A DNA stretch of 47,801 nt from an uncultured Hyphomicrobiales bacterium (GTDB taxonomy: Bacteria; Pseudomonadota; Alphaproteobacteria; UBA828; JAPUJA01), in NCBI GenBank assembly GCA_964631625.1, contig CAZVZP010000001.1, positions 1-47,801 of the forward strand, given 5' to 3'. A model generated the notes under the pieces. It ran no database searches, was not told the origin of the DNA, and was given only the letters and a program-made list of their open reading frames with translations. Of the stretch, positions 2,861 to 46,338 are shown one piece after another; the first letter of the stretch is position 1, and every line of letters starts with the position of its first letter. Made by a program: the position numbers and the translations under genes.

Positions 2861-3277
2861 CTAGTATTCGTTCTTCTGCGGCAAGTCGTCGGCGATCTTG
2901 AACCACGGCACCTTCGAACCCACGAAGATGTGCTGCTCGCGGTCCTTCGGATGGCCCGGGTGCGCGCCGCCGTCGAGCGTGCCCGTGGCGTAGTAGATGG
3001 CATTCGGCGTCGAATCGATCTCGGTGTAAACCTGACAACCGCAGGTGCGGCAGAAATGCCGGTGGTTGCCGGGCGAGCTTTGGTATTCCGCGAGATTGTC
3101 CGCGCCCCGCTCGATGCGAAAACCGGCGCGCGGCACCTCCGAGAACGTGACGTAGATGGCACCGTGCAGTTTGCGGCACATGGAGCAATGACAATGGCTA
3201 AGCGCGCGCGCCGGCTCGCTCACCACGTAGCGCACGGTGCCGCACTGACAGCCGCCTTTGAGCTCGAACGCCGCCAC
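2861..3277 (-). CDS. GFA/CENP-V family Zn-binding protein, paralog 2 of 7
   Basis: The ORF track gives 2861..3304 (TTG start). GTG at 3277 (VAAFELKGGCQCG) is preceded by GGAAGGAGG and gives 138 aa, like paralog 1. Motifs are CQC, HCHCSMCRK and FCRTCGC. Confidence 0.8.
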   Translation of the reverse strand: MAAFELKGGCQCGTVRYVVSEPARALSHCHCSMCRKLHGAIYVTFSEVPRAGFRIERGADNLAEYQSSPGNHRHFCRTCGCQVYTEIDSTPNAIYYATGTLDGGAHPGHPKDREQHIFVGSKVPWFKIADDLPQKNEY

Positions 3278-31035: not shown

Positions 31036-33318
31036 GTGCGACTTGCGCGGGGCACCATGAGAGGCGGTCTTGCCGTCAATCCGAACGCACGCGGGCTTGC
31101 CACGCCCGATGCCGCCCCGCCTGCGACCGCATCCCGTCCCGAGGGAACCCCGGCCGAAGCCGCCTTTCGCGGCGTGCTCGAGCGCCATCCGGGCCAGCCG
31201 GACGTGCTCCATCTCTTAGGCTTGGCCGCCCTCGGGCAGGGCCGCGTCGCCGACGCGCTCGAGCTCATCGGACGGGCGCGCGAGCGCGCCTCGGACGTCG
31301 CCGAATATCACACCAGCTTTGGCCTCGCCCTGCTCGACGCCGGTCGGACCGCGGAGGCTGCGCAGGCGTTCGCCCAGGCCGCGGCACTCGATCGGGACTC
31401 GATCCGCCCTCTCGTCAACCTGGCCCACGCTCAGGAACGCCTGGGCGAGTTGCCGCAGGCGCTCGCGACCTACGCGCTCGCGCTCGAACGCGCGCCAAAC
31501 GACGCGGGGCTCCATGCCGGCATCGGCGGCGCACTTGCCCGTCTCGAGCGCACGAACGAGGCCTTGCGCCACCTCGCGCGGGCCGTCGAGCTCGACGGCA
31601 ATCTGCTCGCCGCTTGGCTCGTGCTCGGCGCCCTGCACGAGCAGCGCGAGGAGGCGCAAGCGGCCCACGACGCCTATCAGCGCGCCCGAGAGCTCGCGCG
31701 GCACGATCCCTCAATCCTCTGCGCGCTCGGCCGCGTCTGCGCCGCGCTGGGGCGCCTCGAGGAGGCAGCGGAGTGGTACGGCCGCGCGCTCATGCTCGAT
31801 CCGGGCCTCCCCGACGCGCGGCTCGGGCTTGCCGCCGTGCTTCATGCGGGCGCGCCCGAGAGCGCCGCCCGCGCTCGCCTGAGCTCAGCCCTCAACGCGC
31901 CGCCCGCGGGCGATCCGGCCGGCAGGACCGGAGAGCGCAAGGACCTCCGGGCGGATGCCGGACTCGAGGCCGAACGCAGCCTGCACCGTTTGCTTCTGCT
32001 CGAGCCCGACAACCTCGAGCTTGGTCTTGAGCTCGGACGGCACCTGCGCCGGCGAGGGCAAGCGGACGACGCCCTCGCGCATTATCAGTCGCTCATCGCC
32101 CGACACCCGCACTCGGCGCACGCCGAGAGCGCGCTCGCCCTCGTGCTCATCGGCGCGAACCGGCGCGAGGAAGCGCTCGCCCATATCGACCACGCCATGG
32201 CGCTCGAGCCGAAGTCGCCCGTAGCCCTCAACAACCTCGGCAGCTTGCGCCAAGAGCTTGGCCAGTTCGACGCGGCGCTCGAGGCCTACGAGCAGGCGCT
32301 CGCGCTGGCGCCCGAGTACGCCGAGGCCCACTACAACCGGGCACAGCTCCTGCTCCGCCTCGGCCGCTACGCCGAGGGTTGGCGCGAATACGACTGGCGC
32401 CTCGGGCTGCCCGCGAGCCGAGCGCTGCCGCGTCTGCCCGCCGATTGGGATGCGGTACGACCGGTCGGCCGCCGGGTCGCGGTCGTCGGCGAACAGGGTC
32501 CGGGCGACGTCGTGCTCTTCGCCCACTGCTTGTCCGATCTGATCGCGGATGCGCACGAGGTGTCGCTCCATGTGGAGCGCCGGCTCGTGCCCCTGTTCCG
32601 CCGTTCGTTTCCGGGGCTCGAGGTGAGCGATCGCAGGCCGCGGCGTGCCGCGGGTCAAGAGGGCGCGACGCTCGTTCTGCCCATCGGCTCGCTGCCGCGC
32701 ATCTACCGCAACAGCGAGGCCGACTTCGCCCGCGCACGCGCGCGCTACCTGACGCCCGATCCCGAACGAGTCGAGCATTGGCGCGCACGCCTCGCGGCCC
32801 TTGGCCCAGGCCCCAAGATCGGCCTGTCCTGGCGCGGCGGCAAGAGCCCCACGGAGCGGCGTCTGCGCGACACCGCGCTGGCCGACTGGGACCCGCTCTT
32901 TGCGGTGAGCGAGGCCCGCTTTGTCAATCTCCAGTACGACGCACGCCGAGGCGAGATCGAACAGGCCCGGCGCCGGCGCAACGCGAAGCTCGACACCTGG
33001 GACGACCTCGAGCTCATGCACGACCTCGACGAGCTCGTTGCCCTGATCGAGGCGCTCGACCTCGTGGTCTCCATGGCAAACACCACCGTCCACTTCGCCG
33101 GGGCGCTGAATAAGCCCGTGTGGATCCTCGTGCCGGCCGCTCCAAGTTGGCGTTGGCAGCACCAACGCGCGGATTCGCCGTGGTACCGCAGCGCGCGCCT
33201 CCTTCGTCAAACCATGGGCGAGCCGTGGTCCCGCTTCGCCGAACGGGTCGCGGCCGAGCTCGCCCGGCACCTGCACAACGTCTCGCAACGGTCCGATCCG
33301 AGGAGCGCCGTGTCATGA
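31036..33318 (+). CDS. TPR repeat + C-terminal GT9-like (heptosyltransferase-fold) glycosyltransferase, paralog 1 of 5
   Basis: 760 aa from GTG 31036; the alternative ATG 31057 gives 753 aa. N-terminal TPRs. C-terminal motifs are GEQGPGDVVLF, IGLSWRGG, LDLVVSMANTTVHFAGALNKPVWILVPAAPSWRW and SPWYRS. Confidence 0.8.
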   Translation: MRLARGTMRGGLAVNPNARGLATPDAAPPATASRPEGTPAEAAFRGVLERHPGQPDVLHLLGLAALGQGRVADALELIGRARERASDVAEYHTSFGLALLDAGRTAEAAQAFAQAAALDRDSIRPLVNLAHAQERLGELPQALATYALALERAPNDAGLHAGIGGALARLERTNEALRHLARAVELDGNLLAAWLVLGALHEQREEAQAAHDAYQRARELARHDPSILCALGRVCAALGRLEEAAEWYGRALMLDPGLPDARLGLAAVLHAGAPESAARARLSSALNAPPAGDPAGRTGERKDLRADAGLEAERSLHRLLLLEPDNLELGLELGRHLRRRGQADDALAHYQSLIARHPHSAHAESALALVLIGANRREEALAHIDHAMALEPKSPVALNNLGSLRQELGQFDAALEAYEQALALAPEYAEAHYNRAQLLLRLGRYAEGWREYDWRLGLPASRALPRLPADWDAVRPVGRRVAVVGEQGPGDVVLFAHCLSDLIADAHEVSLHVERRLVPLFRRSFPGLEVSDRRPRRAAGQEGATLVLPIGSLPRIYRNSEADFARARARYLTPDPERVEHWRARLAALGPGPKIGLSWRGGKSPTERRLRDTALADWDPLFAVSEARFVNLQYDARRGEIEQARRRRNAKLDTWDDLELMHDLDELVALIEALDLVVSMANTTVHFAGALNKPVWILVPAAPSWRWQHQRADSPWYRSARLLRQTMGEPWSRFAERVAAELARHLHNVSQRSDPRSAVS

Positions 33319-34040
33319 ATCCGAGAGAAATCCCGATCTTCGTCGGCTGGGACAGCCGGGAGGACATCGCCTACCAGGTGTGCCGCTATTCGGTTCTGCG
33401 GCGCGCCTCTGAGCCCCTCAAGGTGTTCGCGCTGCGTCAAAAGGCGTTGCGCTACCAGCGGCTCTATTGGCGCGACGCGGACCCCCTGGCCTCGACCGAG
33501 TTCACGTACACCCGCTTCCTCGTGCCGGCACTCGCCGATTACCGGGGGTGGGCGCTCTTCTGCGACTGCGACTTCCTGTTCCTCGCGGATGCGGTGGAAC
33601 TCCTCTCGCTTGCCGATTCGCGCTACGCCATGATGTGCGTGCATCACGATCACCGCCCGACCGAGCGCACGAAGATGGACGGCTGCGCGCAAACGATCTA
33701 TCCACGCAAGAACTGGTCGAGCCTGATGCTGATGAATTGCGCCCACCCGGCCAACCGCGCGTTGACGCCCCAGGTTGTGAACGGGCAGAGCGGCCAGTTC
33801 CTGCATCGCTTGCAGTGGCTCGACGATGCGCTCATCGGCCAATTGCCGGTGAGCTGGAACTGGCTCGAGGGCTGGTACCCCAAGCCCGACAGCGGAACGC
33901 CCAAGGCCGTGCACTTCACCCGCGGTGGCCCGTGGTTCTCAAACTGGCAGCACGTCGACTACGGCGAGTTGTGGCTCGCGGAGCGAGCCGAGTTCGAGCG
34001 CCAGATGGAGCGGCCGAGCGGGCGCATCGCCGCGGCTTGA
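33315..34040 (+). CDS. GT8-like (GT-A fold, DxD) glycosyltransferase
   Basis: 241 aa from ATG 33315, with an ATGA overlap onto the paralog 1 stop. Contains FTYTRFLVPAL...FCDCDFLF (DxD), HHDH and NWSSLMLMNC. Confidence 0.6.
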   Translation: MNPREIPIFVGWDSREDIAYQVCRYSVLRRASEPLKVFALRQKALRYQRLYWRDADPLASTEFTYTRFLVPALADYRGWALFCDCDFLFLADAVELLSLADSRYAMMCVHHDHRPTERTKMDGCAQTIYPRKNWSSLMLMNCAHPANRALTPQVVNGQSGQFLHRLQWLDDALIGQLPVSWNWLEGWYPKPDSGTPKAVHFTRGGPWFSNWQHVDYGELWLAERAEFERQMERPSGRIAAA

Positions 34041-34054
34041 ACCGCAAACCGTCC

Positions 34055-36109
34055 ATGGTCACGCCCGAGCAGACCTTCGGCCAGGCGCTCGGCCATCATC
34101 GGGCCGGCCGGCTCGAGACCGCCGAACGGCTCTATCGCGAGGTACTCGCTGCGGTGCCCGGGCATTGCGATGCCCTGGTCAACTTGGGCGCCATCGCGGC
34201 GGCCCGGAGCCGCTTCGACGAGGCGGCGGCGCTGTCGCAGCGCGCGCTTGAAAACAACCCGCAGTGCCTCAACGCGCTCGTCAACTTGGCCGCGGCACGC
34301 TACGCCCAGGGCGACGCCGATGGCGCGGCCGAGGCCCTCGAGCGTGCCGTCGGACTGGCGCCGCAAGATTTGCCGCTGCTGCTCAATCTGGCCGGTTTGC
34401 GACGCGCACAAGGGCGCGCGGCGGAGGCGCGTGCGCTGCTCGAGCGCGCCCACGAGCGCGCACCGAGCGATCCGGAGCCGCTTGTTCAACTGGCACTCGA
34501 GGCGCTCGCCGGAGGCCGCTTGGAAGAGGCCGAGCGCCATCTGCGTGCGGCCCTCGCGCGCGAGCCGCGCCACGCCGAGGCCCAGTTCAATCTGGCCCGG
34601 CTGCGCGAGCAGGCGGGCGATGCGCAAGGCGCGGTCGAGCATTACCGCCGGGCCCTTCAGGCAAACACCCGACATCCGGGCGCGCTCAACAACTTCGGCC
34701 TCTTGCTCGACAGGCTGGGCAAGAAGGCCGAGGCCGCAATGCTGCTGCGCCGTGCTGTTGCCGCCGAACCCGCCCGGGCGGAATTTCATTACAATCTGGG
34801 CAGCGTGCTGGCGGATCAGGATGAGTTCGACGGCGCCACGATTGCGCTCGGCGAGGCACTGCGCCTCAATCCGGGCTACCGCGAGGCGCGGCTCCGCCTC
34901 GCGAATCTCTACACCGCAACCGGCGCCTACGAGGCGGCCGAGCGCTGCTACCGCTCCGTGCTTGCGCAGGAACCAAGCCACGCGGTCGCCCACGCCAACC
35001 TGGGTGTGCTTCACGAGTACCGGGGCGCCATGGCCGAGGCCGAGGCCGAGTTCCGGCAAGCCATCGCCCTCGATCCCGGTTACGCCGCGGCGCACTTCAA
35101 TCTCGCGTTGCTCCTGTTGCGCGAAGAGCGTTTCGCCGAAGGCTGGCGCGAGTACGAGTGGCGCTGGCAGGTGATCGACAGCCTGCCCCCGCGGGCGCCC
35201 CTGCCGCTGTGGGACGGCAGCCCGCTCGATGGCCGCGGCCTCCTCGTGCTGGGCGAGCAGGGCCCCGGGGACATGGTGATGTTCGCGCAATGCTTGCCCG
35301 AGGTGCTCGAACAGACAAATCGGGTCGTGCTCACCGCCGAGCCCCGTCTCGTGGACCTGCTGGCGCGCTCCTTTCCGCGGGTCGAGATAAGACCAGCCGA
35401 TTATCGGGAAGTGCCGGACGTTCCCGAAGGCTGCGAGGTCGCTCTTGCGATCGGCAGCTTGCTCGGCCTCTTTCGCCGTCGGCCGACGGACTTCGCGCAC
35501 ACGCACATCCCCTACCTCGTGCCCGATCCAGAAGCCGTCGCGCGCTGGCGCGAACGCTTCGCCGCCCTCGGCCCGGGCCCTAAGATCGGTCTCTCCTGGG
35601 CCGGCGGCGCGAGCCCCAGCGAGCGGCGTTTCCGCGGCCTCGATAGTGCCGACCTCGAGCCGCTGCTCGAGCTTCCCGAATGCCGTTTCGTCAATCTGCA
35701 ATACGGTAAACGCCGAGGCGATGGCACGGTGCTGGCCGAGCGGACCGGAATCCCGATTGCCGACTGGGCCGACGCGGATCCGGTGAGCCGCTTCGATGAC
35801 CACGTGGCGCAAATCGCTTGCCTCGATGCCATCGTCTCGGTCGCGAACACGGTCATCCACGCGGCGGGCGCGCTTGGCACGCCCGCGCTGGTGCTCACTC
35901 CCGCGACGCCAAGCTGGCGCTGGGGGCTCAGGCGAAGCCACTGTCTCTGGTATCCGGCCGTCGAACTCTTGCGCCAAGGCGCGGGCGAGCCCTGGCGGGC
36001 GGTCGCCGAGCGCGCCGCCGCGCGGCTCGCGCATCGGCTCGCACGCCGGGAGGGCGACGAGGCGGCCGAGGCGCGCGCACCGATGGGACCGGCAGATTTT
36101 GCCGCTTAA
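34055..36109 (+). CDS. TPR repeat + GT9-like glycosyltransferase, paralog 2 of 5
   Basis: 684 aa from ATG 34055 (MVTPEQTFGQALGHHRAGRLETAERLY). About 9 TPR units. C-terminal motifs are GEQGPGDMVMF, IGLSWAGG, LDAIVSVANTVIHAAGALGTPALVLTPATPSWRW and CLWYPA. Confidence 0.8.
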   Translation: MVTPEQTFGQALGHHRAGRLETAERLYREVLAAVPGHCDALVNLGAIAAARSRFDEAAALSQRALENNPQCLNALVNLAAARYAQGDADGAAEALERAVGLAPQDLPLLLNLAGLRRAQGRAAEARALLERAHERAPSDPEPLVQLALEALAGGRLEEAERHLRAALAREPRHAEAQFNLARLREQAGDAQGAVEHYRRALQANTRHPGALNNFGLLLDRLGKKAEAAMLLRRAVAAEPARAEFHYNLGSVLADQDEFDGATIALGEALRLNPGYREARLRLANLYTATGAYEAAERCYRSVLAQEPSHAVAHANLGVLHEYRGAMAEAEAEFRQAIALDPGYAAAHFNLALLLLREERFAEGWREYEWRWQVIDSLPPRAPLPLWDGSPLDGRGLLVLGEQGPGDMVMFAQCLPEVLEQTNRVVLTAEPRLVDLLARSFPRVEIRPADYREVPDVPEGCEVALAIGSLLGLFRRRPTDFAHTHIPYLVPDPEAVARWRERFAALGPGPKIGLSWAGGASPSERRFRGLDSADLEPLLELPECRFVNLQYGKRRGDGTVLAERTGIPIADWADADPVSRFDDHVAQIACLDAIVSVANTVIHAAGALGTPALVLTPATPSWRWGLRRSHCLWYPAVELLRQGAGEPWRAVAERAAARLAHRLARREGDEAAEARAPMGPADFAA

Positions 36110-36308: not shown

Positions 36309-37475
36309 ATGGCTCTTAACATTATTTCGAACTACGCTGCGAACGTTGCGCAGCGCAACTTGGTTCGGACCGACGCCGCGGCCACCGCTTCGCTCGCGAA
36401 GCTGTCCTCGGGCACTCGCGTGGTGAGCGCCAAGGACGACGCCGCATCGCTCGCCATCGGCAAGCGTCTCGAGGCCGAAATCGGTGCCCTGCGCCAAGCG
36501 CAGGTCAACGCCGGTCAGGCCGCGTCGATGCTGCAAATCGCCGACGGCGCGCTGGCGACCCAGGCCGACATCATCGTCCGGATGAAGGTCCTGGCCGTAC
36601 AGTCCTCCTCGAGCCAGCTGTCCAGTACCGAGCGTACACTCCTTAACAACGAGTTTACCTCGCTGCGGGATGAGTTGAACCGTATCGCCCAAGACACAGA
36701 CTTTAACGGCATAAAGTTGCTGAGCGGCTCGACCACGTTCTCGGCGAGCTCGGTCGGCACCGACATCGCCGTGGTGGACGGCTTCGAGCAGTTCATCTTC
36801 GGCTCGGATCCGGGCGGCACGTTCATCTCGGCGGGCGATACCATCGCCATCACCTACAACACCGGCACGGACATCTTGACCGTGACGAACGAGGTGACGG
36901 GTCAGGCGGAGACGGCGAGCGTGAGCGCGGCGCCTTCGGCGGGTTCGTTCTCGGATGTGGTGTTCGGCGATTTCGGCCTCACCGTCCGCTTGAACTCGCT
37001 GTTTGCGACCGGCACCGCGGTGACCGGCGCCAACGCAAAGTTCATCGTGGCCGGCGGCACGTCGAACACGCTGACGCTCTCGTTCCGTGTTGGCACGGGC
37101 ATCAACTCGGAGGATGTCATCAGCTTCTCGCTAGGCAAGTCCACCGCCGTGGCCCTTGCAGCGGGCCTTGACACCGACGACATCCTGACGGTGGCAGCGG
37201 CCGAGACCGCAATCACCGACACGACGACGGCAATCGACGAGGCTAACTCCATCCGAGCCGACGTGGGTGCGGCCCAGAACCGGGTGACCTTCGCGGCCTA
37301 CAACCTCGGGTCGAGCATCGAGAACGCGGAAGCGGCTCGAAGCAACCTGTTGGACCTCGACATCGCGGCGGAGACGACGAACTTCGTCTCCAAGCAGATC
37401 CTGTTCCAGGCTGGTGTGGCCATGCTCGCGCAGGCGCAGCAGCTGCCGCAGGCCCTGCTCAAACTCCTCGGGTAA
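36309..37475 (+). CDS. fliC: Flagellin
   Basis: 388 aa. The conserved N-terminus is LAKLSSGTRVVSAKDDAASLAIGKRLEAEI. The C-terminus is RADVGAAQNRVTFAAYNLGSSIENAEAARSNLLDLDIAAETTNFVSKQILFQAGVAMLAQAQQLPQ. The variable middle is Ser/Thr/Ala/Gly-rich. Confidence 0.95.
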   Translation: MALNIISNYAANVAQRNLVRTDAAATASLAKLSSGTRVVSAKDDAASLAIGKRLEAEIGALRQAQVNAGQAASMLQIADGALATQADIIVRMKVLAVQSSSSQLSSTERTLLNNEFTSLRDELNRIAQDTDFNGIKLLSGSTTFSASSVGTDIAVVDGFEQFIFGSDPGGTFISAGDTIAITYNTGTDILTVTNEVTGQAETASVSAAPSAGSFSDVVFGDFGLTVRLNSLFATGTAVTGANAKFIVAGGTSNTLTLSFRVGTGINSEDVISFSLGKSTAVALAAGLDTDDILTVAAAETAITDTTTAIDEANSIRADVGAAQNRVTFAAYNLGSSIENAEAARSNLLDLDIAAETTNFVSKQILFQAGVAMLAQAQQLPQALLKLLG

Positions 37476-37914: not shown

Positions 37915-40900
37915 ATGGAATCAGTGTTCAACCTGGGCTCGCTCACCGTCGATCCGACGACGGGCCGCGCGAGCTTCTCGGGTCTCGGCACCGGCATCGA
38001 CATTCAAGGCGCGATCACGGCGATCCTGCAGGCCAAGCGGCTGCCGGCGGTCACGCTCGAGACCCGCATCACGGCAAATCAGGAAAAGATCGTAGCCCTC
38101 CAGGCGCTGCGCACGGCCTTGAATGCGGTCAAGAGCTCGCTCAACCGCTTGCGCGGCGCGGTCAGCGTCGGCAACACGAACAACGTGTTCCACGCCAAGA
38201 CCGTGTTCGCCAGCACCTCGCGCCTCGACGGGTTGAGCCCCTCCGCGGCCGGCAATCTCGTCGGGCTCACCGTGTCGAACGCGGCGGCCAAGGGCGTGCA
38301 CGAGATCGAAATCCGCCGCGTCGCCACGGCGCACAAGATCGCGAGCTCGAGCTTCGCGAGCGCGAGCACCGCGCTCGGCCTCTCCGGTTCCTTCCAGATC
38401 GGCAGCGGCAGCACGGCCGCGACGATCACGGTCTCGGCCACCGATACGCTCCTCGACATCCGCGACCGAATCAACAACGCCAACACCGGAACCAACGCCA
38501 CGGGCGTCTCGGCAAGCATGGTCACGGTGAGCAGCACCCAGAACATGCTCGTGGTCTCGAGCGATGCGACCGGCGAGACCCTTCAGATCACGGATTCGGG
38601 CAGCGTGCTCTCGGGCCTCGGCCTGTCGGCCACAGGCGGTGCGGGCGGCTACCGCAATGGGCTCGCAAGCAGCAAGATCGAGAGCACCGATGGCTTCGAC
38701 GCGGTTCTCTTCGACGGCACCGAGGCCGACAACGCCTTCCGCCTGAGCTACGTCGCGGCGACCCGCACGCTGACGCTGACCCGGGGCGACGGCACCTCCG
38801 AGTCCGTGACGCTCTCCGCCGATACGATCGCGGCGGGCGAGACGGAAGAGGCGAGCTTCGACGACTTCGGCGTCACGGTCATGCTCAATTCGAGCTTCAA
38901 CAAGGCCGCCGACATTACGGTGAGCGCCGATACGGTATCGATCACGGGCGGAACGGGCGCGATCGATGCCGGCACGGTGACCATCGCCGACAGCGCCGGA
39001 AACATTTCCGGGATCACGAGCTCGACGCTGACCTTCGGCAACCTCGCCACGCCCGCGGCGATCAGCGTCTCGGTCGGCAGCTTTACCGGCACCTTCAACG
39101 GCACGAGCACCGGCACCAAGACGGTTACGCTGACAAACGGGAGCAATTCGCTGACCGTGCAGTTCAACGTGACCACGGTTTTCGACGGCACCGAGACCGC
39201 CGGCTCGATCACGCTCAACGAGCTCGAGAATGCGCTGGGCGCCACCGGCGACCCGTTCGCAAGCGTCCTGCAAAGGCCGCAGAGCGCGCGCATCACCGCC
39301 GACGGCCTGACCGACGGCACCCATCACGAGTCGCTCGTCGTGGCCGATTCCTCCGCCCAACTCGGCACCTACCTGAGCGATCTGACCTTCCCCGGCAGCT
39401 TCACGATCAACGGAACGAGCTCGCGCACGATCAACTTCGCCTCGACCGACACGCTCGAGACCCTGCGCGACGCCATCAACGTCGAGACCGTGAACACCGG
39501 GGTGACGGCCACCATCGTCGAGGATGGCGGCGGCTACCGCCTCGACTTCGACTCGGCGAGCGCGTTCACCCTCACCGATACGACCGGCTTGCTCGGCGAG
39601 CTCGGTGTCAACAACGCGCTCGTCATCGAGCGCTCGAGCAACACCGTGACCGATCTCTTCGCGGGCGTCACGCTTTCGCTCTTCGCGGCCGAGCCGCGCA
39701 CGACGATCAAGCTCGAAATCGAGCAGGACCTGAGCGGGGTCAAGACCGAGATCACGGGGTTTGCCACCGCCTACAACTCGGCACGTTCGATCATCAACCA
39801 GCACCAGCTGACCGATTTCACGACCGGCGTCAAGAGCGAGGATGCCGACGTGCTGTTCGGCAACCGCGTGCTCGCCGACGCCCAGCGCCGGCTCGCCAAC
39901 GCCGTGAGCGAGGATGTGTCGGGCGTCGATGCCGCCTTCGCGGTGCTCCGCCAGATCGGCATCGAGCTCGTCGACAACACGCTGATCACCGATCCTCTGC
40001 TCAAGGACACGCTCGAGATCGACGAGACCGCGCTCGATCAGGTGCTGCTGTCCAATCTCGCCGACGTGCGCCGCCTCTTCGCCTTCGAGTTCACGAGCTC
40101 CGATCCCCGTGTGGTTTTGAGCCGCTTCACGGCGAACACCCAATACTCGGCCTCGGGCTATGTGCTCAACATCGGCACCTTCGGCCAGCGCAACAAGGAT
40201 TCGGCGAGCGTTGCGAGTGCAAGCGCCATGCTCAACGATGCGGTCAATAGTTTTGGCGCCACCACCTCGGGCAGCTTCACCGTCAACGGCGCGTCCGTTG
40301 CCTACAACGTCGCCACGGACACCCTCGATACGCTGATCAGCAACATGAATGCGGCGTTCGTTACGGCCGGCAACGACGTCACCGCGAGGAAACGCACCGA
40401 CGAGGACGGCAACTTCTTCATCGATCTTCAATCAAACACCCAGACGGCGCTCACGATCGGCGGGGATACGGGCGACCTCGTAGCACTCCTCAACTTCCAG
40501 CCCGACCTCGACATGCTCGACAGCGCGAACATCGGCGGAGCCGCGAACGGCAGCGACGACGGCAGCGCCACGGTCTCGGGGCGCGCGATCACGGCAACCG
40601 ATCAGACCTCGGCCGACGGCCTCGGGGTGATCTACACGGGCACGGGCTCGGCCAGCGCAATTCAGATCGACTTCACCGTGGGGGTCGCCGCCGACCTGTT
40701 CGATGCGCTGGAGCAGTTCGTCGATACGATCGACGGCTCGATCCAAGGGGAGATCGCGGCTCTCGAAGCCCAGAACGAGGTATCCCAAGACCGGGTCGAG
40801 CAGATCGATTTCCGACTCGATCTCTTGCAGGCGTCTCTGCTCGCGCGCTTCGTCGCGATGGAGACGGCGCTCACCCGCATGAAACAGCTTCTAGAGGGCC

Positions 40901-40941
40901 TCAAGGTCCAGTTCGAGGCGCTCAGCAATGCCAACAAGTAA
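37915..40941 (+). CDS. fliD: Flagellar filament cap protein FliD (HAP2), unusually long (1008 aa)
   Basis: The N-terminus is SGLGTGIDIQGAITAILQAKRLPAVTLETRITANQEKIVALQAL. The FliD_C-like region is LFAGVTLSLF...ITGFATAYNSARSII, followed by the terminal coiled coil IDFRLDLLQASLLARFVAMETALTRMKQ. There are three GSFxI/VNG...TDTL...IN modules. Confidence 0.9.
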   Translation: MESVFNLGSLTVDPTTGRASFSGLGTGIDIQGAITAILQAKRLPAVTLETRITANQEKIVALQALRTALNAVKSSLNRLRGAVSVGNTNNVFHAKTVFASTSRLDGLSPSAAGNLVGLTVSNAAAKGVHEIEIRRVATAHKIASSSFASASTALGLSGSFQIGSGSTAATITVSATDTLLDIRDRINNANTGTNATGVSASMVTVSSTQNMLVVSSDATGETLQITDSGSVLSGLGLSATGGAGGYRNGLASSKIESTDGFDAVLFDGTEADNAFRLSYVAATRTLTLTRGDGTSESVTLSADTIAAGETEEASFDDFGVTVMLNSSFNKAADITVSADTVSITGGTGAIDAGTVTIADSAGNISGITSSTLTFGNLATPAAISVSVGSFTGTFNGTSTGTKTVTLTNGSNSLTVQFNVTTVFDGTETAGSITLNELENALGATGDPFASVLQRPQSARITADGLTDGTHHESLVVADSSAQLGTYLSDLTFPGSFTINGTSSRTINFASTDTLETLRDAINVETVNTGVTATIVEDGGGYRLDFDSASAFTLTDTTGLLGELGVNNALVIERSSNTVTDLFAGVTLSLFAAEPRTTIKLEIEQDLSGVKTEITGFATAYNSARSIINQHQLTDFTTGVKSEDADVLFGNRVLADAQRRLANAVSEDVSGVDAAFAVLRQIGIELVDNTLITDPLLKDTLEIDETALDQVLLSNLADVRRLFAFEFTSSDPRVVLSRFTANTQYSASGYVLNIGTFGQRNKDSASVASASAMLNDAVNSFGATTSGSFTVNGASVAYNVATDTLDTLISNMNAAFVTAGNDVTARKRTDEDGNFFIDLQSNTQTALTIGGDTGDLVALLNFQPDLDMLDSANIGGAANGSDDGSATVSGRAITATDQTSADGLGVIYTGTGSASAIQIDFTVGVAADLFDALEQFVDTIDGSIQGEIAALEAQNEVSQDRVEQIDFRLDLLQASLLARFVAMETALTRMKQLLEGLKVQFEALSNANK

Positions 40942-41521
40942 CGGCGACGCCCCCAAACAGCCGCGCGTGCTCACGCCGGAACAGCGCGAGCGCCGGCGGA
41001 AGTTCTACGAGTACTGCAAGGCCAAACGAGTCGACAAGACCAGCGCGCCAGCGCGCCCGCTGTGGGAGAACCGCTACTGGTCCCAGGAGATTCTTTCGGC
41101 CTCGCCGCTCGAGTGCCTGGTCAAGCTCTACGACGGCGCCATCCAGTTCCTGCGCCGCGCGGAAAGCGCGACCAAGGGGGGCGATATCGCCGCGCGCTAC
41201 GAGGCGAGTCAGCGGGCCGCGCGCATCATCGAACATCTGGCCGACACCCTCGACCTGCAGCAGGGCGGCGAGGTGGCCGGGAAGCTCGACGCCATCTACA
41301 AGACGGCCCTGCGTCGCCTCATCGAGGTGAACACCCGCAACGACGCTCAGGCCGCGCGCGACGTGATCGGCCTCTTGGAGCCGCTCGTCCGCTCCTGGCG
41401 CGAGCTCGGCGCCCGGCAAGCGGGTGAGGCCGCGCGGCGTGCCGGCCGTCCTCTATTCCCCACCGAGGAGACGCCGCAGGGCAACGGCCGTCCCCGGCAA
41501 GGGGTTTCCGCTACCGTCTGA
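40928..41521 (+). CDS. fliS: Flagellin-specific export chaperone FliS with ~45-aa basic N-terminal extension
   Basis: 197 aa. The FliS core is YWSQEILSASPLECLVKLYDGAIQFLRRAE...AARIIEHLADTLDLQQGGEVAGKLDAIYKTALRRLIEVN...LLEPLVRSWREL. The start overlaps the fliD 3' end by 14 nt. Confidence 0.8.
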   Translation: MPTSNGDAPKQPRVLTPEQRERRRKFYEYCKAKRVDKTSAPARPLWENRYWSQEILSASPLECLVKLYDGAIQFLRRAESATKGGDIAARYEASQRAARIIEHLADTLDLQQGGEVAGKLDAIYKTALRRLIEVNTRNDAQAARDVIGLLEPLVRSWRELGARQAGEAARRAGRPLFPTEETPQGNGRPRQGVSATV

Positions 41522-41579: not shown

Positions 41580-41615
41580 GCGCCGGACCGGGCAACCGGT
41601 CCGGCGCTTTCTTTT
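41580..41615 (+). terminator. Rho-independent terminator after fliS
   Basis: GCGCCGGACCGG-gcaa-CCGGTCCGGCGC, a 12-bp perfect stem followed by TTTCTTTT. Confidence 0.85.
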
Positions 41616-41625
41616 GTCGGCACGC

Positions 41626-43074
41626 TCAGCCTTCGAAGCGGACGAGCCGCGCGAGATCGGCGGCCACGCGCCGGAACACTCCGCTCCACTCCCCGGGCCG
41701 CTCCTGCCGGTAGAGGCGTGCCGTTGGATACCACGGGCTCTCGGTGCCCTGCGCCATCCAGCGCCAGTCGGGGGGGATCGGCACAAGAGTCCAGACCGGC
41801 TTGCCGAGCGCGCCCGCGAGATGAACCACGGCGCTGTCCACCGCAACGACGAGATCGAGCGCGGCGATCAGCGCGGCGTAGCGATCGAGGTCGCTCAAGG
41901 GATCGACGCCGTCGATGGGTTCGGGGACGAGACCGCCCGCGGCGGCGGACTCGGCACGCTCGTGCGCCCTATCCCCGTATTGCAAATCGACGAACCGAAC
42001 CCCCGTGATGCGCGCAAGGGGCTGCCAATCGGCGAGCGTGGTGGAGCGGCGCCGCCGTTCCATGCCTTCGCGCCCCCCCCGCCAGGCGATGCCGACGGCT
42101 AATCTCCCGGCCGCGGCGGCGCCGAGGCGCGCGCGAAACTCTTGCGTTGCGGCGTCCTCCGCCCGCAGATAGCCGGGCGTGCGCGGAAAGGCATCGCGCG
42201 AGCCGCGGAAGAGGCGCGGCAGGCTGCCGGCGGGAAGCCAGCATTCGGCGGGCGGCGGCGTCTCGCTCCCGGCACCCTCGCGGCGCGTACCCGAGACCTC
42301 GGCAGCCGGGAAGGAGCGGGCGAAGAGCGGCGCGAGCCTCGGCTCGCACACCACCACCGGCACGGCCCCGGCCGCGCTCAAGTCGGGCAGACAGGACGCG
42401 AACATGATCTCATCGCCCACCCCCTGCTCGCCGTAAATCAGAACACGCCGGCCCTCGGGCGCGCCGCCATCCCACAACGGCAAGGGCAGAGTCGGAAAGC
42501 GCACCTTGCCCGCGGCGATGCGCCAGGCGTAAGACGCCCAACCCCGCGCGAGGTCGCCCTCGAGCAGATACGCGAGCGCCCGGTTCCATTCCGCATGGGG
42601 CCAACGCGGCTTGAGCGCCAGCGCCCGCGCATAGCAGGCTATCGCCTCCTCCAAGCGCGCTTGCGCCCGGAGCGCGTTGCCGAGATTGCACCAGGCCGCC
42701 GCATGGCCGGGGTCGAGAGCCAGCGCCGCCCGATGCTCGGCCTCGGCCTGCGCAAAGTCGCCGAGCGCCTGCAGCGCTCCGCCCAGATTGTCGTGCGCCG
42801 AGATGGAATCGGGCTTGAGCCTAAGAGCCGCCCGCAAGGTGGCCGCCGCCTCGGCAAATTGCCCCGATTGGAGAAGCAAGGCGCCGAGATTGGCGGCAAT
42901 CGCCGGATCCTGCGGCGCGGATGCGTAGGCCTTGCGAAGCCACGCCTCGGCTTCGTCCAGGCGGCCTTGCGCGATCGCCGCAAGCCCCTGCCCGTGCCAG
43001 CTGCGCGCAGCCTCGATTCCGCCGGCTGCCGTCTCCTGCGGGCGCCCCCGAACCCCCTTGAAGGAATGCGTCAT
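41626..43074 (-). CDS. TPR repeat + GT9-like glycosyltransferase, paralog 3 of 5 (shortest TPR arm)
   Basis: 482 aa from ATG 43074, with an ATGA overlap onto the paralog 4 stop; the track fuses it into 41626..44499. Motifs are YGEQGVGDEIMF, IAWRGG, LDLVVAVDSAVVHLAGALGKPVWTLVPIPPDWRW and SPWYPT. Confidence 0.8.
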   Translation of the reverse strand: MTHSFKGVRGRPQETAAGGIEAARSWHGQGLAAIAQGRLDEAEAWLRKAYASAPQDPAIAANLGALLLQSGQFAEAAATLRAALRLKPDSISAHDNLGGALQALGDFAQAEAEHRAALALDPGHAAAWCNLGNALRAQARLEEAIACYARALALKPRWPHAEWNRALAYLLEGDLARGWASYAWRIAAGKVRFPTLPLPLWDGGAPEGRRVLIYGEQGVGDEIMFASCLPDLSAAGAVPVVVCEPRLAPLFARSFPAAEVSGTRREGAGSETPPPAECWLPAGSLPRLFRGSRDAFPRTPGYLRAEDAATQEFRARLGAAAAGRLAVGIAWRGGREGMERRRRSTTLADWQPLARITGVRFVDLQYGDRAHERAESAAAGGLVPEPIDGVDPLSDLDRYAALIAALDLVVAVDSAVVHLAGALGKPVWTLVPIPPDWRWMAQGTESPWYPTARLYRQERPGEWSGVFRRVAADLARLVRFEG

Positions 43075-44630
43075 CGAGCGCGGCCATCCGCAAGAGATCG
43101 CCGCAACGCGGCGAGCCGCTCCGCAGCGCGCTCCACCGCCGGGCTCCAATCCTCGCCTTGTCGCTGCCGGATCAACTCGACGCTCGGGTACCACAAACAG
43201 CGATCGCCCGTGCACTGCCAGCGCCAGCTCGGCACCGTCGGCACCAAGGTGAGCGTCGTCTTGCCGAGCGCGCCCGCGAGATGCACCGTGGTGTTGGCGA
43301 CCGAGACGACGAGATCGAGCGCGTCGATCAGGGCGCACAGCCCGTCGAGGTCCTGGTTTGGATCGTTTTCCGGAAAATCGTGGATCGCGATTCCCGTCGC
43401 GCTGCGCAGGGCCTCGATCTCGCCGCGGCAGTCGTCGTACTGGAGCGTCACGAAGTGGAGGCCCGGTGAGCGCAGGATCGGCTGCCAAGACTCGAGCGTC
43501 ATCCGCCGCAGATGCCGCTCCAGAGGCGACGCGCCGCCTCGCCACGAAATCCCGACCTTGAACCCCGGCCCGAGATCGACGAGGCGGGCGCGCCAAGATT
43601 CGACCGCGCGCGCATCGGGCACGAGATAGCGCGTGGGCGAGCGTTGGAAGCTCGCCGCGGTGGGACGGAAGTAGCGCGGCAGCGAGCCGATCGCGACCGC
43701 GTAGTCGACCGCGGGCTCCGGCCACCAGGCACCGGTGTCGGGCACACGGTCGGCCGTCACCTCGGCTTTGGCAAACGAGCGCGCAAACAGCGGCGCGATC
43801 CTGCCCCGGCATTGCACGAACACCCGGCCCGCGTGTGCCAGGAGCTCGGGCAGGCACGAGGCGAACATCACGATGTCGCCCGGGCCCTGCTCGCCGTAAA
43901 CCAGGATGCGCTTGCCCGACAGCGGCTCGCCCCGCCACTCGGGCGCGTTGAAGCGGCGCCACGCCGTGCGCTGCGCCTTCTCCTTCCAGCGGCCCTCGTA
44001 GGCCGGCCAGCCGCGGGCGAAATCGCCCGCAAGCAACAGCGTGAGCGCGCGGGTAAGCGGCGTTTCCGGGCACCCGGGATTGAGCGCGAGCGCGCGCTCG
44101 TAGCACGCGAGCGCATCCTCGAGACGGTCTTGTGCGCGGCACAGGTTGCCGAGGTTGGTCAGGATGGCCGGGTCGTCGGGCTCGAGCGCCTGGGCCCGCC
44201 TGAGCGCGGCCTCGGCATCCGCGAACGAGCCGAGCTCGTGGAGTGCGCTGCCGAGGTTGATCAGGACATCGACGGCGTCGGGATCGAAGCGCAAGGCACT
44301 GCGATAAGCCTCGACCGCGGCCCCGCGTTCGTCCGCTTCGCGCAGGAGATTGCCGAGATTGAAGTGGGCGAGCGCGTAATCGGGCGCGAGCGCAATCGCT
44401 TGGCGATAGAGCGCCAATGCGCAGTCGCGCTCGCCCCGCGCCTGCGCGAGCGCCGCGCGATTGAGCATGAGCCGCGGGTTGTCGGGTGCGAGCGCGCAAG
44501 CCGCGCTCATAGCGGCTTCCGCTTGCTCGAACCGGCGCTCGCGCAGCGCCGCCAGGCCTAGCGCGTTGAGCTGCTCGACGCGGGCCGCGTCGCTTGCGCT
44601 GAGCGAACTCGAACGGGCGGAGCGCGACAT
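43071..44630 (-). CDS. TPR repeat + GT9-like glycosyltransferase, paralog 4 of 5
   Basis: 519 aa from ATG 44630. Motifs are YGEQGPGDIVMF, ISWRGG, LDLVVSVANTTVHLAGALGKTTLTLVPTVPSWRW and CLWYPS. Confidence 0.8.
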   Translation of the reverse strand: MSRSARSSSLSASDAARVEQLNALGLAALRERRFEQAEAAMSAACALAPDNPRLMLNRAALAQARGERDCALALYRQAIALAPDYALAHFNLGNLLREADERGAAVEAYRSALRFDPDAVDVLINLGSALHELGSFADAEAALRRAQALEPDDPAILTNLGNLCRAQDRLEDALACYERALALNPGCPETPLTRALTLLLAGDFARGWPAYEGRWKEKAQRTAWRRFNAPEWRGEPLSGKRILVYGEQGPGDIVMFASCLPELLAHAGRVFVQCRGRIAPLFARSFAKAEVTADRVPDTGAWWPEPAVDYAVAIGSLPRYFRPTAASFQRSPTRYLVPDARAVESWRARLVDLGPGFKVGISWRGGASPLERHLRRMTLESWQPILRSPGLHFVTLQYDDCRGEIEALRSATGIAIHDFPENDPNQDLDGLCALIDALDLVVSVANTTVHLAGALGKTTLTLVPTVPSWRWQCTGDRCLWYPSVELIRQRQGEDWSPAVERAAERLAALRRSLADGRAR

Positions 44631-44652
44631 CAAGCCGGCCCGGGTGTGGTGC

Positions 44653-46338
44653 CTAGGCGGCGAGGCAGCGGGCGAGCCTTACGGCCACGCGCGCCAGCAC
44701 GGCGGCCCAGGGCTCGCCCGCGCTCTGGCGGATCAGCTCGACGCTCGGGTACCACGGGCTGTCGCTCCGTTCGACCATCCAGCGCCAGCTCGGCACCGCG
44801 GGCACGAGCGCCCACGTGGGCTTGCCGAGCGCGCCGGCGAAGTGGATGGTCGTGTTGGCGACCGAGACGACGAGATCGAGAGCATCGATCTGGGCCGCGA
44901 AGTCATCGAGGTTCTCGACCGCGCCCGGCCAGTCGGCAACGCGCACGCCGTGGGACTCGGCGAGCCGATCGAGCTCCTCGCGGCGCGGGCCGTATTGCAA
45001 ATTGACGAACACGATTCCCGGGGTGCGCAACAGCACGAGCCAATCCTCGAGTGCGGTGCCGCGCAGGTGGCGCTCGACCACGGTGGCGCCGCCCCGCCAC
45101 GAGACCCCGACCTTGAGACCCGGTCCCAAGGCCTCGAGCCGGCCGCGCCAGCGCACCACTCGCCGCGCGTCGGTTGCGAGGTAACGGCGCACGCCCGGAA
45201 ATGCCGCCTCCGAGCGGCGGAAGAACAGCGAAAGGCTGCCGATGGGCAGGACCGAATCGGTGTCCTCCGGCGCCGGCGCCGGCCGGCCGTCGGCCAGCCG
45301 CTCGCTGACCACGGTGATCCGGGGGAAGGAGCGCGCGAGCAGCGGCACGAGAGTGGGCGGGCACTGGACCGCGATGCGCGGCACCGCCGCCAGCGTCTCG
45401 GGCAGGCACGAGGCGAACATCACGACGTCGCCGGGCCCTTGCTCGCCGTAGAGCAGCAGACTCCCCGCGCCGAGCGGCACGCCCCGCCAGAGTGGCCGGC
45501 CGAACGCGCGCCGCAGCGAGGCCGGCTCCGACACCTCGAAGCGGGCTTCGTAGTCGGCCCAGCCCTGGGCGAAGTCGCCGAGGCCGAGCCGCACGACGCC
45601 GCGATTCAAGCGCAGCTCGGGCGAGGCGGGCGCGAGCGCCAGGCCCGCTTCGTAGGCCGCGAGCGCCTCATCGAAGCGGCCTTGAGCTCGAAGGCTGTTG
45701 CCGAGATTGCCGTGAATCTCGGACACCTCGGGAGAGAACGTCAGGGCGGCGCGAAACCTGCGCTCGGCCTCGACAAACGCGGCCGCGTCGTAAAGCGCGA
45801 GGCCCAGTGCATTCTGCGCCGCGGCGAGATCGGGTGCGCGGTCGGCCGCCCGCTCAAGCACCTCGATCGCTTCCTCGGTCTGCCCGTGGCGGCGCAAGGC
45901 GATGCCGAGATTGGTCAGAGTCTTCGCGTCGCTGGGATTGGCCGAAAGCGCGGCCCGCAGGCAATCGATCGCCTCCTCATAACGTGCGAGCCGGCACAGG
46001 GCCTCGCCTCGCCGCGATCGGTAGGAAACGTGATCGGGCGCGAGTGCGATCGCCCGGCTCCAATGGAGTTCGGCGGCCTCGGCATCGCCCAGCGCGAGTG
46101 CCAGCTCGGCCAAGTTGCCGTGCACGGGATGCAAAGCGGGCGCCAGCTTCGCCGCCTCTTCGAGGCAGCGGCGGCCTTCGCTCGCGTCGCCACGGCCCGC
46201 CAGAAGCGCAGCGAGATTGACGAGCACGGGCACCGGGCGCGCCTTGCCGGTTAGCAGCGAACGGTACAGGCGCTCCGCTTCCTCGAGCCGACCGGCTTGG
46301 TGTAGCTGGGCGGCACGATCAAACACCTCTCTCGACAT
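44653..46338 (-). CDS. TPR repeat + GT9-like glycosyltransferase, paralog 5 of 5
   Basis: 561 aa from ATG 46338, with GGAG 6 nt upstream; the track ORF starts at GTG 46359. Motifs are YGEQGPGDVVMF, VSWRGG, LDLVVSVANTTIHFAGALGKPTWALVPAVPSWRW and SPWYPS. Confidence 0.8.
   Translation of the reverse strand: MSREVFDRAAQLHQAGRLEEAERLYRSLLTGKARPVPVLVNLAALLAGRGDASEGRRCLEEAAKLAPALHPVHGNLAELALALGDAEAAELHWSRAIALAPDHVSYRSRRGEALCRLARYEEAIDCLRAALSANPSDAKTLTNLGIALRRHGQTEEAIEVLERAADRAPDLAAAQNALGLALYDAAAFVEAERRFRAALTFSPEVSEIHGNLGNSLRAQGRFDEALAAYEAGLALAPASPELRLNRGVVRLGLGDFAQGWADYEARFEVSEPASLRRAFGRPLWRGVPLGAGSLLLYGEQGPGDVVMFASCLPETLAAVPRIAVQCPPTLVPLLARSFPRITVVSERLADGRPAPAPEDTDSVLPIGSLSLFFRRSEAAFPGVRRYLATDARRVVRWRGRLEALGPGLKVGVSWRGGATVVERHLRGTALEDWLVLLRTPGIVFVNLQYGPRREELDRLAESHGVRVADWPGAVENLDDFAAQIDALDLVVSVANTTIHFAGALGKPTWALVPAVPSWRWMVERSDSPWYPSVELIRQSAGEPWAAVLARVAVRLARCLAA

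What the first reader, a model, noticed from the sequence alone, without database searches (positions are those of the whole stretch)
38740..38949. A 70-residue module of FliD aligns without gaps to the flagellin variable region
Seen: the two segments below align position by position.
- FliD residues 276-345: LSYVAATRTLTLTRGDGTSESVTLSADTIAAGETEEASFDDFGVTVMLNSSFNKAADITVSADTVSITGG
- FliC residues 181-250 (nt 36849-37058): ITYNTGTDILTVTNEVTGQAETASVSAAPSAGSFSDVVFGDFGLTVRLNSLFATGTAVTGANAKFIVAGG

The alignment gives 20 identities in 70 positions with no gaps. It includes the core F.DFG.TV.LNS.F, with 10 of 14 residues identical.

Inference: the cap and the filament subunit share a surface-exposed module, through domain exchange or common ancestry. 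That module could be the shared recognition or acceptor element for the neighbouring TPR-glycosyltransferases.

Caveat: both regions are compositionally biased (S/T/A/G), so only the core is clearly non-random by eye.
Basis: seen in the sequence. Interest (0 to 1): 0.6.

Follow-up and report, generated by a model that had tools for sequence, protein, structure and literature searches.

The report
Shared outer-domain cassette in flagellin and cap
The flagellar cap protein FliD carries a removable 200-residue surface cassette whose first half is truly related to the outer domain of the neighbouring flagellin, and the same unannotated cassette also decorates hook, injection-system sheath and baseplate proteins and secreted RTX proteins in other bacteria.

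Summary
It is 20/70 identities without gaps and 10/14 in the core. The FliD coordinates are one residue off: the segment is aa 277-346, nt 38743-38952. Composition-corrected BLASTP gives E=2e-5. Profile-profile comparison gives 97.8% probability, E=8e-13, while reversed and shuffled controls score no better than E=0.07. In the whole six-frame genome, each domain's HMM finds only the other protein.

The segment is part of a discrete cassette, FliD aa 244-446. An otherwise collinear FliD in a relative (G007) lacks exactly this block. The cassette has two all-beta lobes, A and B (AF2 pLDDT 95). The single outer domain of FliC (aa ~151-254) is an A-type lobe.

The family has no Pfam or NCBIfam model, and no significant match to solved structures, by sequence or by Foldseek. 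It is rare: 107 of 1.84 billion representatives. About 65 are flagellins. The rest include FliD, one FlgE, eCIS sheath and baseplate-region proteins, and RTX exoproteins.

FliC and FliD copies are old paralogues (~28% identity), not a recent swap. The glycosyltransferase-acceptor idea has no specific support. Domain sharing between cap and flagellin is already published for other folds, so this is a new variant of a known kind.

The parts
36309..37475 (+). fliC, flagellin, 388 aa
   Evidence: ORF. Pfam Flagellin_N aa 6-143 and Flagellin_C aa 305-387.
36759..37070 (+). FliC outer (variable) domain, aa ~151-254: a single A-type lobe
   Evidence: The module HMM aligns its positions 8-105 to this stretch, E=4e-8 genome-wide. 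hhalign gives 97.8%. The AF2 model has pLDDT 74, with seven strands in the same order as the FliD A lobe.
36849..37058 (+).
   Evidence: The translation matches the quoted string.
37915..40941 (+). fliD, filament cap, 1008 aa
   Evidence: ORF. Pfam FliD_N aa 26-140, Flagellin_IN aa 495-545 plus a second stretch, FliD_C from aa 564.
38644..39252 (+). Insert cassette of FliD, aa 244-446, defined by an indel against the collinear FliD of relative G007
   Evidence: MAFFT alignment: G007 FliD has one 203-residue gap at window FliD aa 244-446, and both flanks are conserved at 53-61% identity.
38653..38952 (+). A lobe of the cassette (FliD aa 247-346), homologous to the FliC outer domain
   Evidence: HMM and hhalign. 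AF2 model with pLDDT 95, strands E15-20 to E94-98.
38743..38952 (+).
38953..39237 (+). B lobe of the cassette (FliD aa 347-441). No counterpart was identified in this FliC, but a B lobe is present in A+B flagellins elsewhere.
   Evidence: Module HMM positions ~100-197. The B lobe is duplicated on its own in other proteins. AF2 strands E103-115 to E183-187.

Best explanation
FliD aa 244-446 is a self-contained extracellular cassette of two all-beta lobes, A and B. It belongs to a rare, unannotated domain family whose main home is the outer (variable) domain of flagellins. The neighbouring FliC carries one A-type lobe as its whole outer domain. Cap and filament therefore display related domains because both drew on the same flagellar outer-domain pool long ago.

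The cassette lies between FliD_N and FliD_C, in the head region of the cap, directly after an IN-type domain. It can be present or absent without disturbing the rest of the protein. FliD-type copies were later copied into other tube-building proteins: FlgE, eCIS sheath and proteins encoded in baseplate gene neighbourhoods. More distant copies form the N-terminal part of RTX exoproteins.

The most likely role is a non-catalytic decoration on the outward face of these assemblies. It would set a surface property such as adhesion, outer-layer contacts or display of Ser/Thr-linked glycan. It is probably not needed for core cap or filament assembly.

Shown here: the homology, the cassette borders, the distribution, the confident beta-rich predicted models with matching strand order, and the lack of an obvious conserved catalytic motif. 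Inferred: surface exposure, dispensability for assembly and the actual function.
For: Homology between FliC and FliD
- BLASTP E=2e-5.
- No shuffle reached the observed score.
- hhalign gives 97.8% probability, E about 1e-12, with clean controls.
- Each HMM finds only the other protein in the whole genome.
- Two independent AF2 models agree in secondary-structure state at 78 of 84 aligned positions.

Cassette behaviour
- G007 FliD is collinear with this FliD except for a single 203-aa gap.
- A and B lobes duplicate independently: A+B+B+B, A+A+A+B and a second copy in FliDs of 1250-1290 aa.

Distribution
- 107 hits among 1.84 billion representatives.
- They comprise about 65 flagellins, 10-11 RTX proteins, 9 FliD, 2 eCIS sheaths, 1 FlgE and 2 proteins next to Baseplate_J or Tail_P2_I genes.
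- The eCIS context is Pvc16_N, an AAA ATPase, CIS_tube and three sheath paralogues.

Direction of transfer
- FlgE, sheath and baseplate-region copies nest inside the FliD clade (SH-aLRT 89-90).
- The own-type FliC clade is separate (95).

No enzymatic signature
- The invariant columns are Gly or hydrophobic residues.
- No Pfam or NCBIfam family matches.
Against: - No experiment or full-length structure shows that the cassette is exposed or dispensable. G007 only shows that a FliD gene without the cassette exists in a relative.
- The fold could not be matched to anything, so no functional analogy can be drawn from structure. Foldseek found nothing at E<1e-3 in PDB or BFVD.
- The FliC domain model is only moderately confident (pLDDT 74).
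- The A-lobe tree rests on 97 columns, and many forks are unresolved.
- Module-bearing FliD lies next to an A-type flagellin in four genomes (G000, G008, G028, G035). This could reflect a functional coupling that this explanation treats as historical.
Confidence: 0.7

Rival explanations
1. One reading: the shared module is the common recognition or acceptor element for the flanking FlmG-like TPR-glycosyltransferases. On this reading, cap and filament receive the same O-glycan.
For: - Five TPR + GT9-like paralogues bracket fliC-fliD-fliS in the window.
- Such paralogues also lie next to A-type flagellin genes in G007, G008, G028 and G035.
- The module is Ser/Thr-rich: 30% against 21% in the rest of FliD, and 24% against 18% in FliC.
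- FlmG-type enzymes recognise flagellins through their TPR domain (PMC7591256).
Against: - The GT paralogues also occur in relatives with no module (G001, G003, G004).
- They were not found in G057, which has A-type flagellins.
- No such GT is called near the eCIS or RTX genes that carry the module, or in the L002 locus with module-bearing FliD and FlgE.
- From my own knowledge, the flagellins that FlmG modifies in Caulobacter have no outer domain, so an outer domain is not required for recognition.
Confidence: 0.15
2. Templating: the cap presents a like-folded copy of the flagellin outer domain, and incoming FliC outer domains fold or dock against it. This is the idea Postel et al. proposed for P. 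aeruginosa FliD Head 2 and FliC (PMC5072837).
For: - A module-bearing FliD lies directly next to an A-type flagellin in G000, G008, G028 and G035.
- The A lobe and the FliC domain have the same predicted strand order.
Against: - The pairing is not obligatory. G007 and G057 have A-type flagellins, but their FliDs (open frames of 815 and 630 aa) lack the cassette.
- In L002, FliD and FlgE carry the module, but the adjacent 524-aa flagellin does not.
- The cassette also sits in sheath, baseplate-region and RTX proteins, which have no flagellin to template.
- The own FliC is not the flagellin closest to the FliD lobe: 28% identity against up to 44% for other flagellins.
Confidence: 0.1
3. The similarity is a chance product of S/T/A/G-rich composition in two variable regions.
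For: Both regions are compositionally biased. A first genome-wide protein search with the FliC domain did not list FliD.
Against: - Composition-adjusted BLASTP gives E=2e-5.
- Shuffles keep composition and never reach the observed score.
- Reversed and column-shuffled profiles score E>=0.067, against 8e-13 for the real ones.
- Reciprocal HMM hits are unique in the genome.
- 13 other flagellins of this family match the FliD module by BLASTP, down to E=1.8e-8.
Confidence: 0.01

Closest known systems
P. aeruginosa FliD Head 2 (D3) and the P. aeruginosa FliC outer domain (Postel et al. 2016, eLife, PMC5072837)
   Same: A head-region domain of the cap resembles the outer domain of the cognate flagellin. 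That paper already proposes shared ancestry or templating.
   Different: - That resemblance is structural only (17% identity, RMSD 2.7 A) and concerns a canonical FliD domain.
- Here the relation is detectable in sequence.
- It concerns an extra cassette that a related FliD lacks.
- Foldseek gave no significant match to any solved structure, and no FliD or flagellin chain appears among the 50 listed PDB matches.
Geovibrio thiophilus flagellin D4/D5, related to FliD D2 (Nat Commun 2024, PMC11532411)
   Same: A flagellin outer domain and a FliD domain are proposed to share an origin by recombination among flagellar genes.
   Different: [quoted passage not shown]
- In the passages I searched, the paper does not mention hook protein (FlgE) copies.
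- I did not search it for sheath, baseplate or RTX copies.
Flagellin_IN motif (Pfam PF07196), shared by flagellins and FliD
   Same: A sequence element common to flagellins and hook-associated protein 2.
   Different: The IN motif lies elsewhere in this FliD (aa 495-545 and a second stretch). It does not match the cassette or the FliC outer domain.
Ig-like decoration domains on phage structural proteins (Fraser et al. 2006, cited in PMC9230969) and extra surface domains of tail sheath proteins (PMC9230969)
   Same: Promiscuous non-catalytic beta domains are inserted at outward-facing positions of tube and sheath subunits, away from the assembly interface.
   Different: There is no significant Ig-family match (Big_3 E=0.7). 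The present family links flagellar axial proteins with eCIS and RTX proteins.
FlmG, the TPR + GT-B flagellin O-glycosyltransferase of Caulobacter (PMC7591256)
   Same: The neighbouring genes have the same two-part architecture: TPR repeats plus a GT9-like C-terminal domain.
   Different: This concerns the neighbours, not the module. No link between these enzymes and the module was shown here.

Membership tests
Flagellin (FliC) | N-terminal and C-terminal helical D0/D1 regions (PF00669 + PF00700) flanking a variable middle | tested here: met
   Flagellin_N E=3.5e-36 and Flagellin_C E=2.7e-20; end-to-end matches to solved flagellins.
FliD filament cap (HAP2) | FliD_N (PF02465) and FliD_C (PF07195) regions | tested here: met
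   FliD_N E=9.8e-11 and FliD_C E=2.2e-33. NCBIfam FliD models match below their cut-offs.
Unnamed A/B outer-domain cassette family (defined here) | Significant profile match to the A lobe, with the core F..FG.T..L....F hairpin | tested here: met
   FliD 247-346 and FliC 151-254. The family was recovered from 1.84 billion representatives.
Unnamed A/B outer-domain cassette family (defined here) | B lobe following the A lobe | tested here: met
   Present in FliD aa 347-441. This FliC matches only the A-lobe positions of the module HMM; after the A lobe it returns to the conserved ..LTLSFRVGTG.. segment.
Flagellin_IN motif (PF07196) | A match of the shared segment to the IN profile | tested here: not met
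   The IN hits lie at FliD aa 495-545 and a second stretch. Neither the cassette nor the FliC domain gives an IN hit, even at E<=10.
Canonical FliD head domain D3 / flagellin D2-type folds with solved structures | Structural match to solved FliD, FliC, FlgK or FlgL domains | tested here: inconclusive
   Foldseek against PDB found nothing at E<1e-3. The best hits for the FliC domain are FlgL 5ziz and FlgK 2d4y/9go6 at E=0.2-0.8, TM 0.3-0.4. No flagellar protein appears among the 50 matches listed for the A+B model. Profile searches of PDB sequences were negative.
Bacterial Ig-like decoration domains (Big_x) | A significant Pfam Big-family match | tested here: not met
   Only Big_3 matched, at E=0.7 and 10.6 bits against a cut-off of 21.2.
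O-glycosylated flagellin acceptor domain (substrate of FlmG/Maf-type enzymes) | Ser/Thr residues shown to carry glycan, or binding to the TPR domain | not testable with these tools
   Only composition (30% Ser+Thr) and gene neighbourhood are available.

The most novel reading that the evidence does not exclude
The A/B cassette is a horizontally mobile 'coat' domain with one shared job, such as binding one class of environmental or host-surface ligand, or carrying one glycan. On this reading it was repeatedly grafted onto the outward face of unrelated extracellular machines because it gives them the same surface specificity. Those machines are the flagellar filament, cap and hook, the eCIS sheath and baseplate, and T1SS-secreted RTX proteins. 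It would be a new, structurally unclassified adhesion or decoration module linking motility organelles and contractile injection systems.
Probability: 0.25. Interest if true: 0.7.

Novelty: new variant of a known kind. Interest (0 to 1): 0.5.

Why it matters
Outer domains decide many surface properties of flagella, but most remain uncharacterised and their origins are unclear.

This case gives a sequence-level, statistically solid example of a cap protein and its flagellin displaying related domains. It defines exact cassette borders and a natural cassette-less FliD gene in relative G007, so a deletion experiment is straightforward.

It also shows the same unannotated domain family on hook, contractile-injection-system sheath and baseplate-region proteins and RTX exoproteins, in lineages with 40-67% GC. 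That makes the family a candidate general-purpose surface module. It deserves a family definition and a solved structure. It would also be a handle for asking how outer domains fold after export through three different routes.

Tried and rejected
- A genome-wide protein search with the FliC outer domain listed only FliC itself. The later full HMM search found FliD, so the first look was simply too coarse.
- PDB sequence searches found nothing meaningful with FliD, the module profile or the FliC-domain profile. The uL24 and P22 gp26 hits are weak and come from repeats or composition.
- Foldseek of both models against PDB, and of the module against BFVD, gave no hit at E<1e-3. No fold assignment was possible.
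- Pfam and NCBIfam have no family for the module.
- The search for related loci with the alignment failed because no stretch was conserved enough. With the module alone it found nothing in genome contigs.
- With sheath protein P0035 it returned 80 sheath loci, the closest from Acidobacteriota/Vicinamibacterales MAGs and most of the rest from Actinomycetota. None contains the module. The hosts of the module-bearing eCIS therefore remain unnamed.
- Recent transfer into the low-GC eCIS contig was considered. The module's GC (46.8%) is close to that of the gene core (43.4%), so there is no sign of recent import.
- SprB-repeat and HYR-repeat proteins among the representative hits (P0105, P0116) were set aside as probable repeat or composition artefacts.
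- Literature searches found no paper linking flagellin outer domains with eCIS sheath or RTX proteins.
Full report
**1. The observation**

The window encodes fliC (36309-37475, 388 aa), fliD (37915-40941, 1008 aa) and fliS (40928-41521) in a row.

The FliD string begins one residue later than stated. It is aa 277-346, nt 38743-38952.

Without gaps the two 70-mers share 20 identities, with a BLOSUM62 score of 73. The core FDDFGVTVMLNSSF / FGDFGLTVRLNSLF shares 10 of 14.

**2. Is it more than chance?**

Yes, by several independent tests:
- Fixed-register shuffles of the FliC segment never reached the score in 100,000 trials.
- Smith-Waterman scores lie 6 to 9 standard deviations above shuffles.
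- BLASTP with compositional adjustment gives E=2e-5 and extends the match to FliD 255-388 / FliC 153-286.
- I built separate profiles from relatives of each protein. hhalign gives 97.8% probability and E about 1e-12 over 85 columns.
- Reversing or column-shuffling the flagellin profile drops this to at most 0.8% probability and E>=0.067.
- In the six-frame translation of the whole 2.79-Mb assembly, the FliD-module HMM (built without flagellins) has FliC as its only other hit (E=4e-8). The flagellin-domain HMM has FliD as its only other hit (E=4.5e-7).

**3. What the unit is**

The 70 residues are part of a larger module. Searching FliD aa 235-490 found about 30 long FliDs (1000-1290 aa) from Rhodospirillales and Kiloniellaceae-type metagenome bins. 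Unexpectedly, the same block also appears in unrelated proteins:
- at 50-60% identity in a hook protein FlgE (P0036);
- at 50-60% identity in two contractile-sheath proteins (P0004, with two copies, and P0035);
- at about 33-37% identity in an RTX protein (P0037, two copies).

The common block is FliD aa 247-441.

A relative (G007) has a FliD that is collinear with the window protein, at 61% and 53% identity in the two flanks. It has one clean gap spanning window aa 244-446. The block is therefore a discrete cassette. It is inserted directly after the first IN-type domain (...VLSGLGLSA) and before the ...ARITADGL... segment. It lies between the FliD_N and FliD_C regions, which is the head region of the cap. 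The mapping to the head region rests on the domain layout described for P. aeruginosa FliD in PMC5072837.

**4. Anatomy**

AlphaFold2 with a 28-sequence alignment gives a confident model: pLDDT 95, pTM 0.86. It has about 14 beta strands and no long helix, which I read as two lobes.
- Lobe A is aa 247-346.
- Lobe B is aa 347-441.

The lobes are independent units. Other family members show A alone, A+B, A+B+B+B and A+A+A+B. The 1250-1290-aa FliDs carry a second, divergent copy near aa 790-980.

The outer domain of this FliC (aa ~151-254) is a single A lobe. After it the chain returns to the conserved ..LTLSFRVGTG.. segment.

An independent model of the FliC domain (pLDDT 74) has the same seven strands in the same order. 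At the 84 positions aligned by hhalign, the secondary-structure state agrees at 78.

The invariant columns are glycines and hydrophobic residues. There is no obvious conserved catalytic motif. The module is 30% Ser+Thr.

**5. Is the family known?**

- No Pfam or NCBIfam model matches.
- It is not the Flagellin_IN motif, which lies elsewhere in FliD.
- Profile searches of all PDB sequences are negative.
- Foldseek finds nothing at E<1e-3 in PDB or BFVD. The best hints for the FliC domain are FlgL and FlgK at E=0.2-0.8, which is not significant.

**6. Distribution**

An exhaustive profile search of 1.84 billion representative proteins gave only 107 hits. Classified by their non-module parts and by Pfam, they are:
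- about 65 flagellins, with the module starting near residue 150, and several with the full A+B;
- 10-11 RTX proteins, typically with two tandem A+B units at the N-terminus;
- 9 FliD;
- 2 eCIS sheaths;
- 1 FlgE;
- 2 proteins encoded next to Baseplate_J or Tail_P2_I genes (P0089, P0060);
- fragments, plus a few probable repeat artefacts (SprB, HYR).

The sheath genes lie in typical eCIS loci, with three sheath paralogues, gp19-type tubes, Pvc16_N, an AAA ATPase and CIS_tube. One of these contigs has 40% GC, against 67% for the window. The module there is adjusted to its host's GC, and its two copies are 100% identical over 632 nt.

Among 61 relatives of the window's genome, 11 have a hit:
- FliD module plus adjacent A-type flagellin(s): G000, G008, G028 and G035.
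- A-type flagellins whose FliD lacks the cassette: G007 and G057. Five further genomes have A-type hits, but their FliD could not be assessed.
- Four same-family genomes have no hit at all.

In L002, FliD and FlgE carry the module, but the adjacent 524-aa flagellin does not.

**7. History**

Identity of the window FliD A lobe to other copies:

| Compared with | Identity |
|---|---|
| Other FliDs | 46-61% |
| FlgE copy | 54% |
| Sheath copies | about 49% |
| RTX copies | about 32% |
| Other flagellins | 31-44% |
| Own-type flagellins | about 28% |

Tree results:
- The FlgE, sheath and baseplate-region copies nest inside the FliD clade (SH-aLRT 89-90).
- The window-type flagellins form their own clade (95).
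- Both clades sit within a larger group that also holds flagellins (87).

The tree rests on 97 columns, and many forks are unresolved.

The reading that fits is as follows. A flagellin outer-domain family gave rise to an old FliD cassette lineage and to the FliC lineage of this clade. Later, FliD-type cassettes were copied into hook and contractile-system proteins. There is no sign of a recent FliC-FliD exchange in this genome.

**8. Function**

The shown facts suggest a non-catalytic module that is placed where subunits face outward and that can be added or removed. The facts are:
- a discrete, optional cassette;
- a position in the cap head region, between D1 and the FlgE_D2 domain of the hook protein, and near residue 110 of sheath proteins;
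- export by the flagellar T3SS, and probably by T1SS for the RTX proteins;
- no catalytic signature.

Outward exposure in sheath and hook proteins is inferred from published architecture (PMC9230969 for sheaths), not tested here. I put 0.7 on 'surface decoration cassette of common ancestry, not needed for core assembly'.

- The flanking proteins have the FlmG architecture: TPR repeats plus a GT9-like domain (PMC7591256).
- They accompany A-type flagellin genes in several relatives.
- The module is Ser/Thr-rich.

Against it, the enzymes occur without the module, and the module occurs without the enzymes. No such GT is called in the fetched stretches of the eCIS, RTX or L002 loci.

The templating idea of Postel et al. 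(PMC5072837) gets 0.1. The FliC and FliD copies are uncoupled in G007, G057 and L002. The cassette also sits on proteins that have no flagellin partner.

**9. Novelty**

It is already published that cap and flagellin can share a domain:
- structurally in P. aeruginosa (PMC5072837);
- by inferred recombination in Geovibrio thiophilus (PMC11532411).

What is new here:
- a sequence-detectable case, in a family with no annotation and no structural match found with the tools used here;
- exact cassette borders;
- the spread of the same cassette to FlgE, eCIS sheath and baseplate-region proteins and RTX proteins.

I found no paper describing that spread. I therefore rate it a new variant of a known kind, of moderate interest.

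**10. Limits**

- The hosts of the eCIS, baseplate and RTX contigs are unnamed.
- Function is inferred.

Noticed in passing
window 31036-36109 (+) and 41602-45645 (-): There are five paralogues with TPR repeats plus a GT9-like C-terminal domain, the FlmG-like architecture. Their GT domains lie at 32287-33276, 35051-36106, 41602-42630, 43062-44099 and 44653-45645, bracketing fliC-fliD-fliS. Similar paralogues flank flagellin genes in G007, G008, G028 and G035, but they also occur in relatives without the module.
   Followed up: partly
L002 2324-6085 (fliD of the contig that also carries the module-bearing FlgE): The fliD reading frame is interrupted by one in-frame TAG at codon 264 (nt 3113), inside the A lobe. 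This gives called ORFs of 263 and 955 aa. It may be a pseudogene, a sequencing error or read-through; this was not resolved.
   Followed up: partly
L003 4359-4990 and 5259-5890 (eCIS sheath P0004): The sheath paralogue carries two module copies that are 100% identical over 632 nt at an offset of 900 nt, a very recent tandem duplication. The same protein is seen on 8 contigs from several samples. A related sheath (P0059) has two copies that have already diverged.
   Followed up: partly
P0011, P0013, P0014, P0016, P0023, P0027-P0033, P0061 (FliDs of 1250-1290 aa; P0033 is an 830-aa partial sequence): The longer FliDs carry a second, divergent copy of the module near aa 780-980. In the tree these copies cluster with three flagellins rather than with the first FliD copy. 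The window FliD lacks this second copy.
   Followed up: partly
L103 (P0089) and L104 (P0060): Two more module carriers are encoded next to Baseplate_J and Tail_P2_I genes. The cassette therefore also seems to occur on proteins of baseplate gene neighbourhoods in contractile systems. The contigs are only 4-5 kb.
   Followed up: partly
window 37915-40941 (FliD aa 157-237, 493-565, 785-861): FliD also holds repeated IN-type modules; Pfam Flagellin_IN matches two stretches.
   Followed up: no
window 36309-37475: P0038, which the database search lists as the window's own protein, is 99% identical to the window FliC. It reads SVSSAPSAG where the window reads SVSAAPSAG.
   Followed up: no
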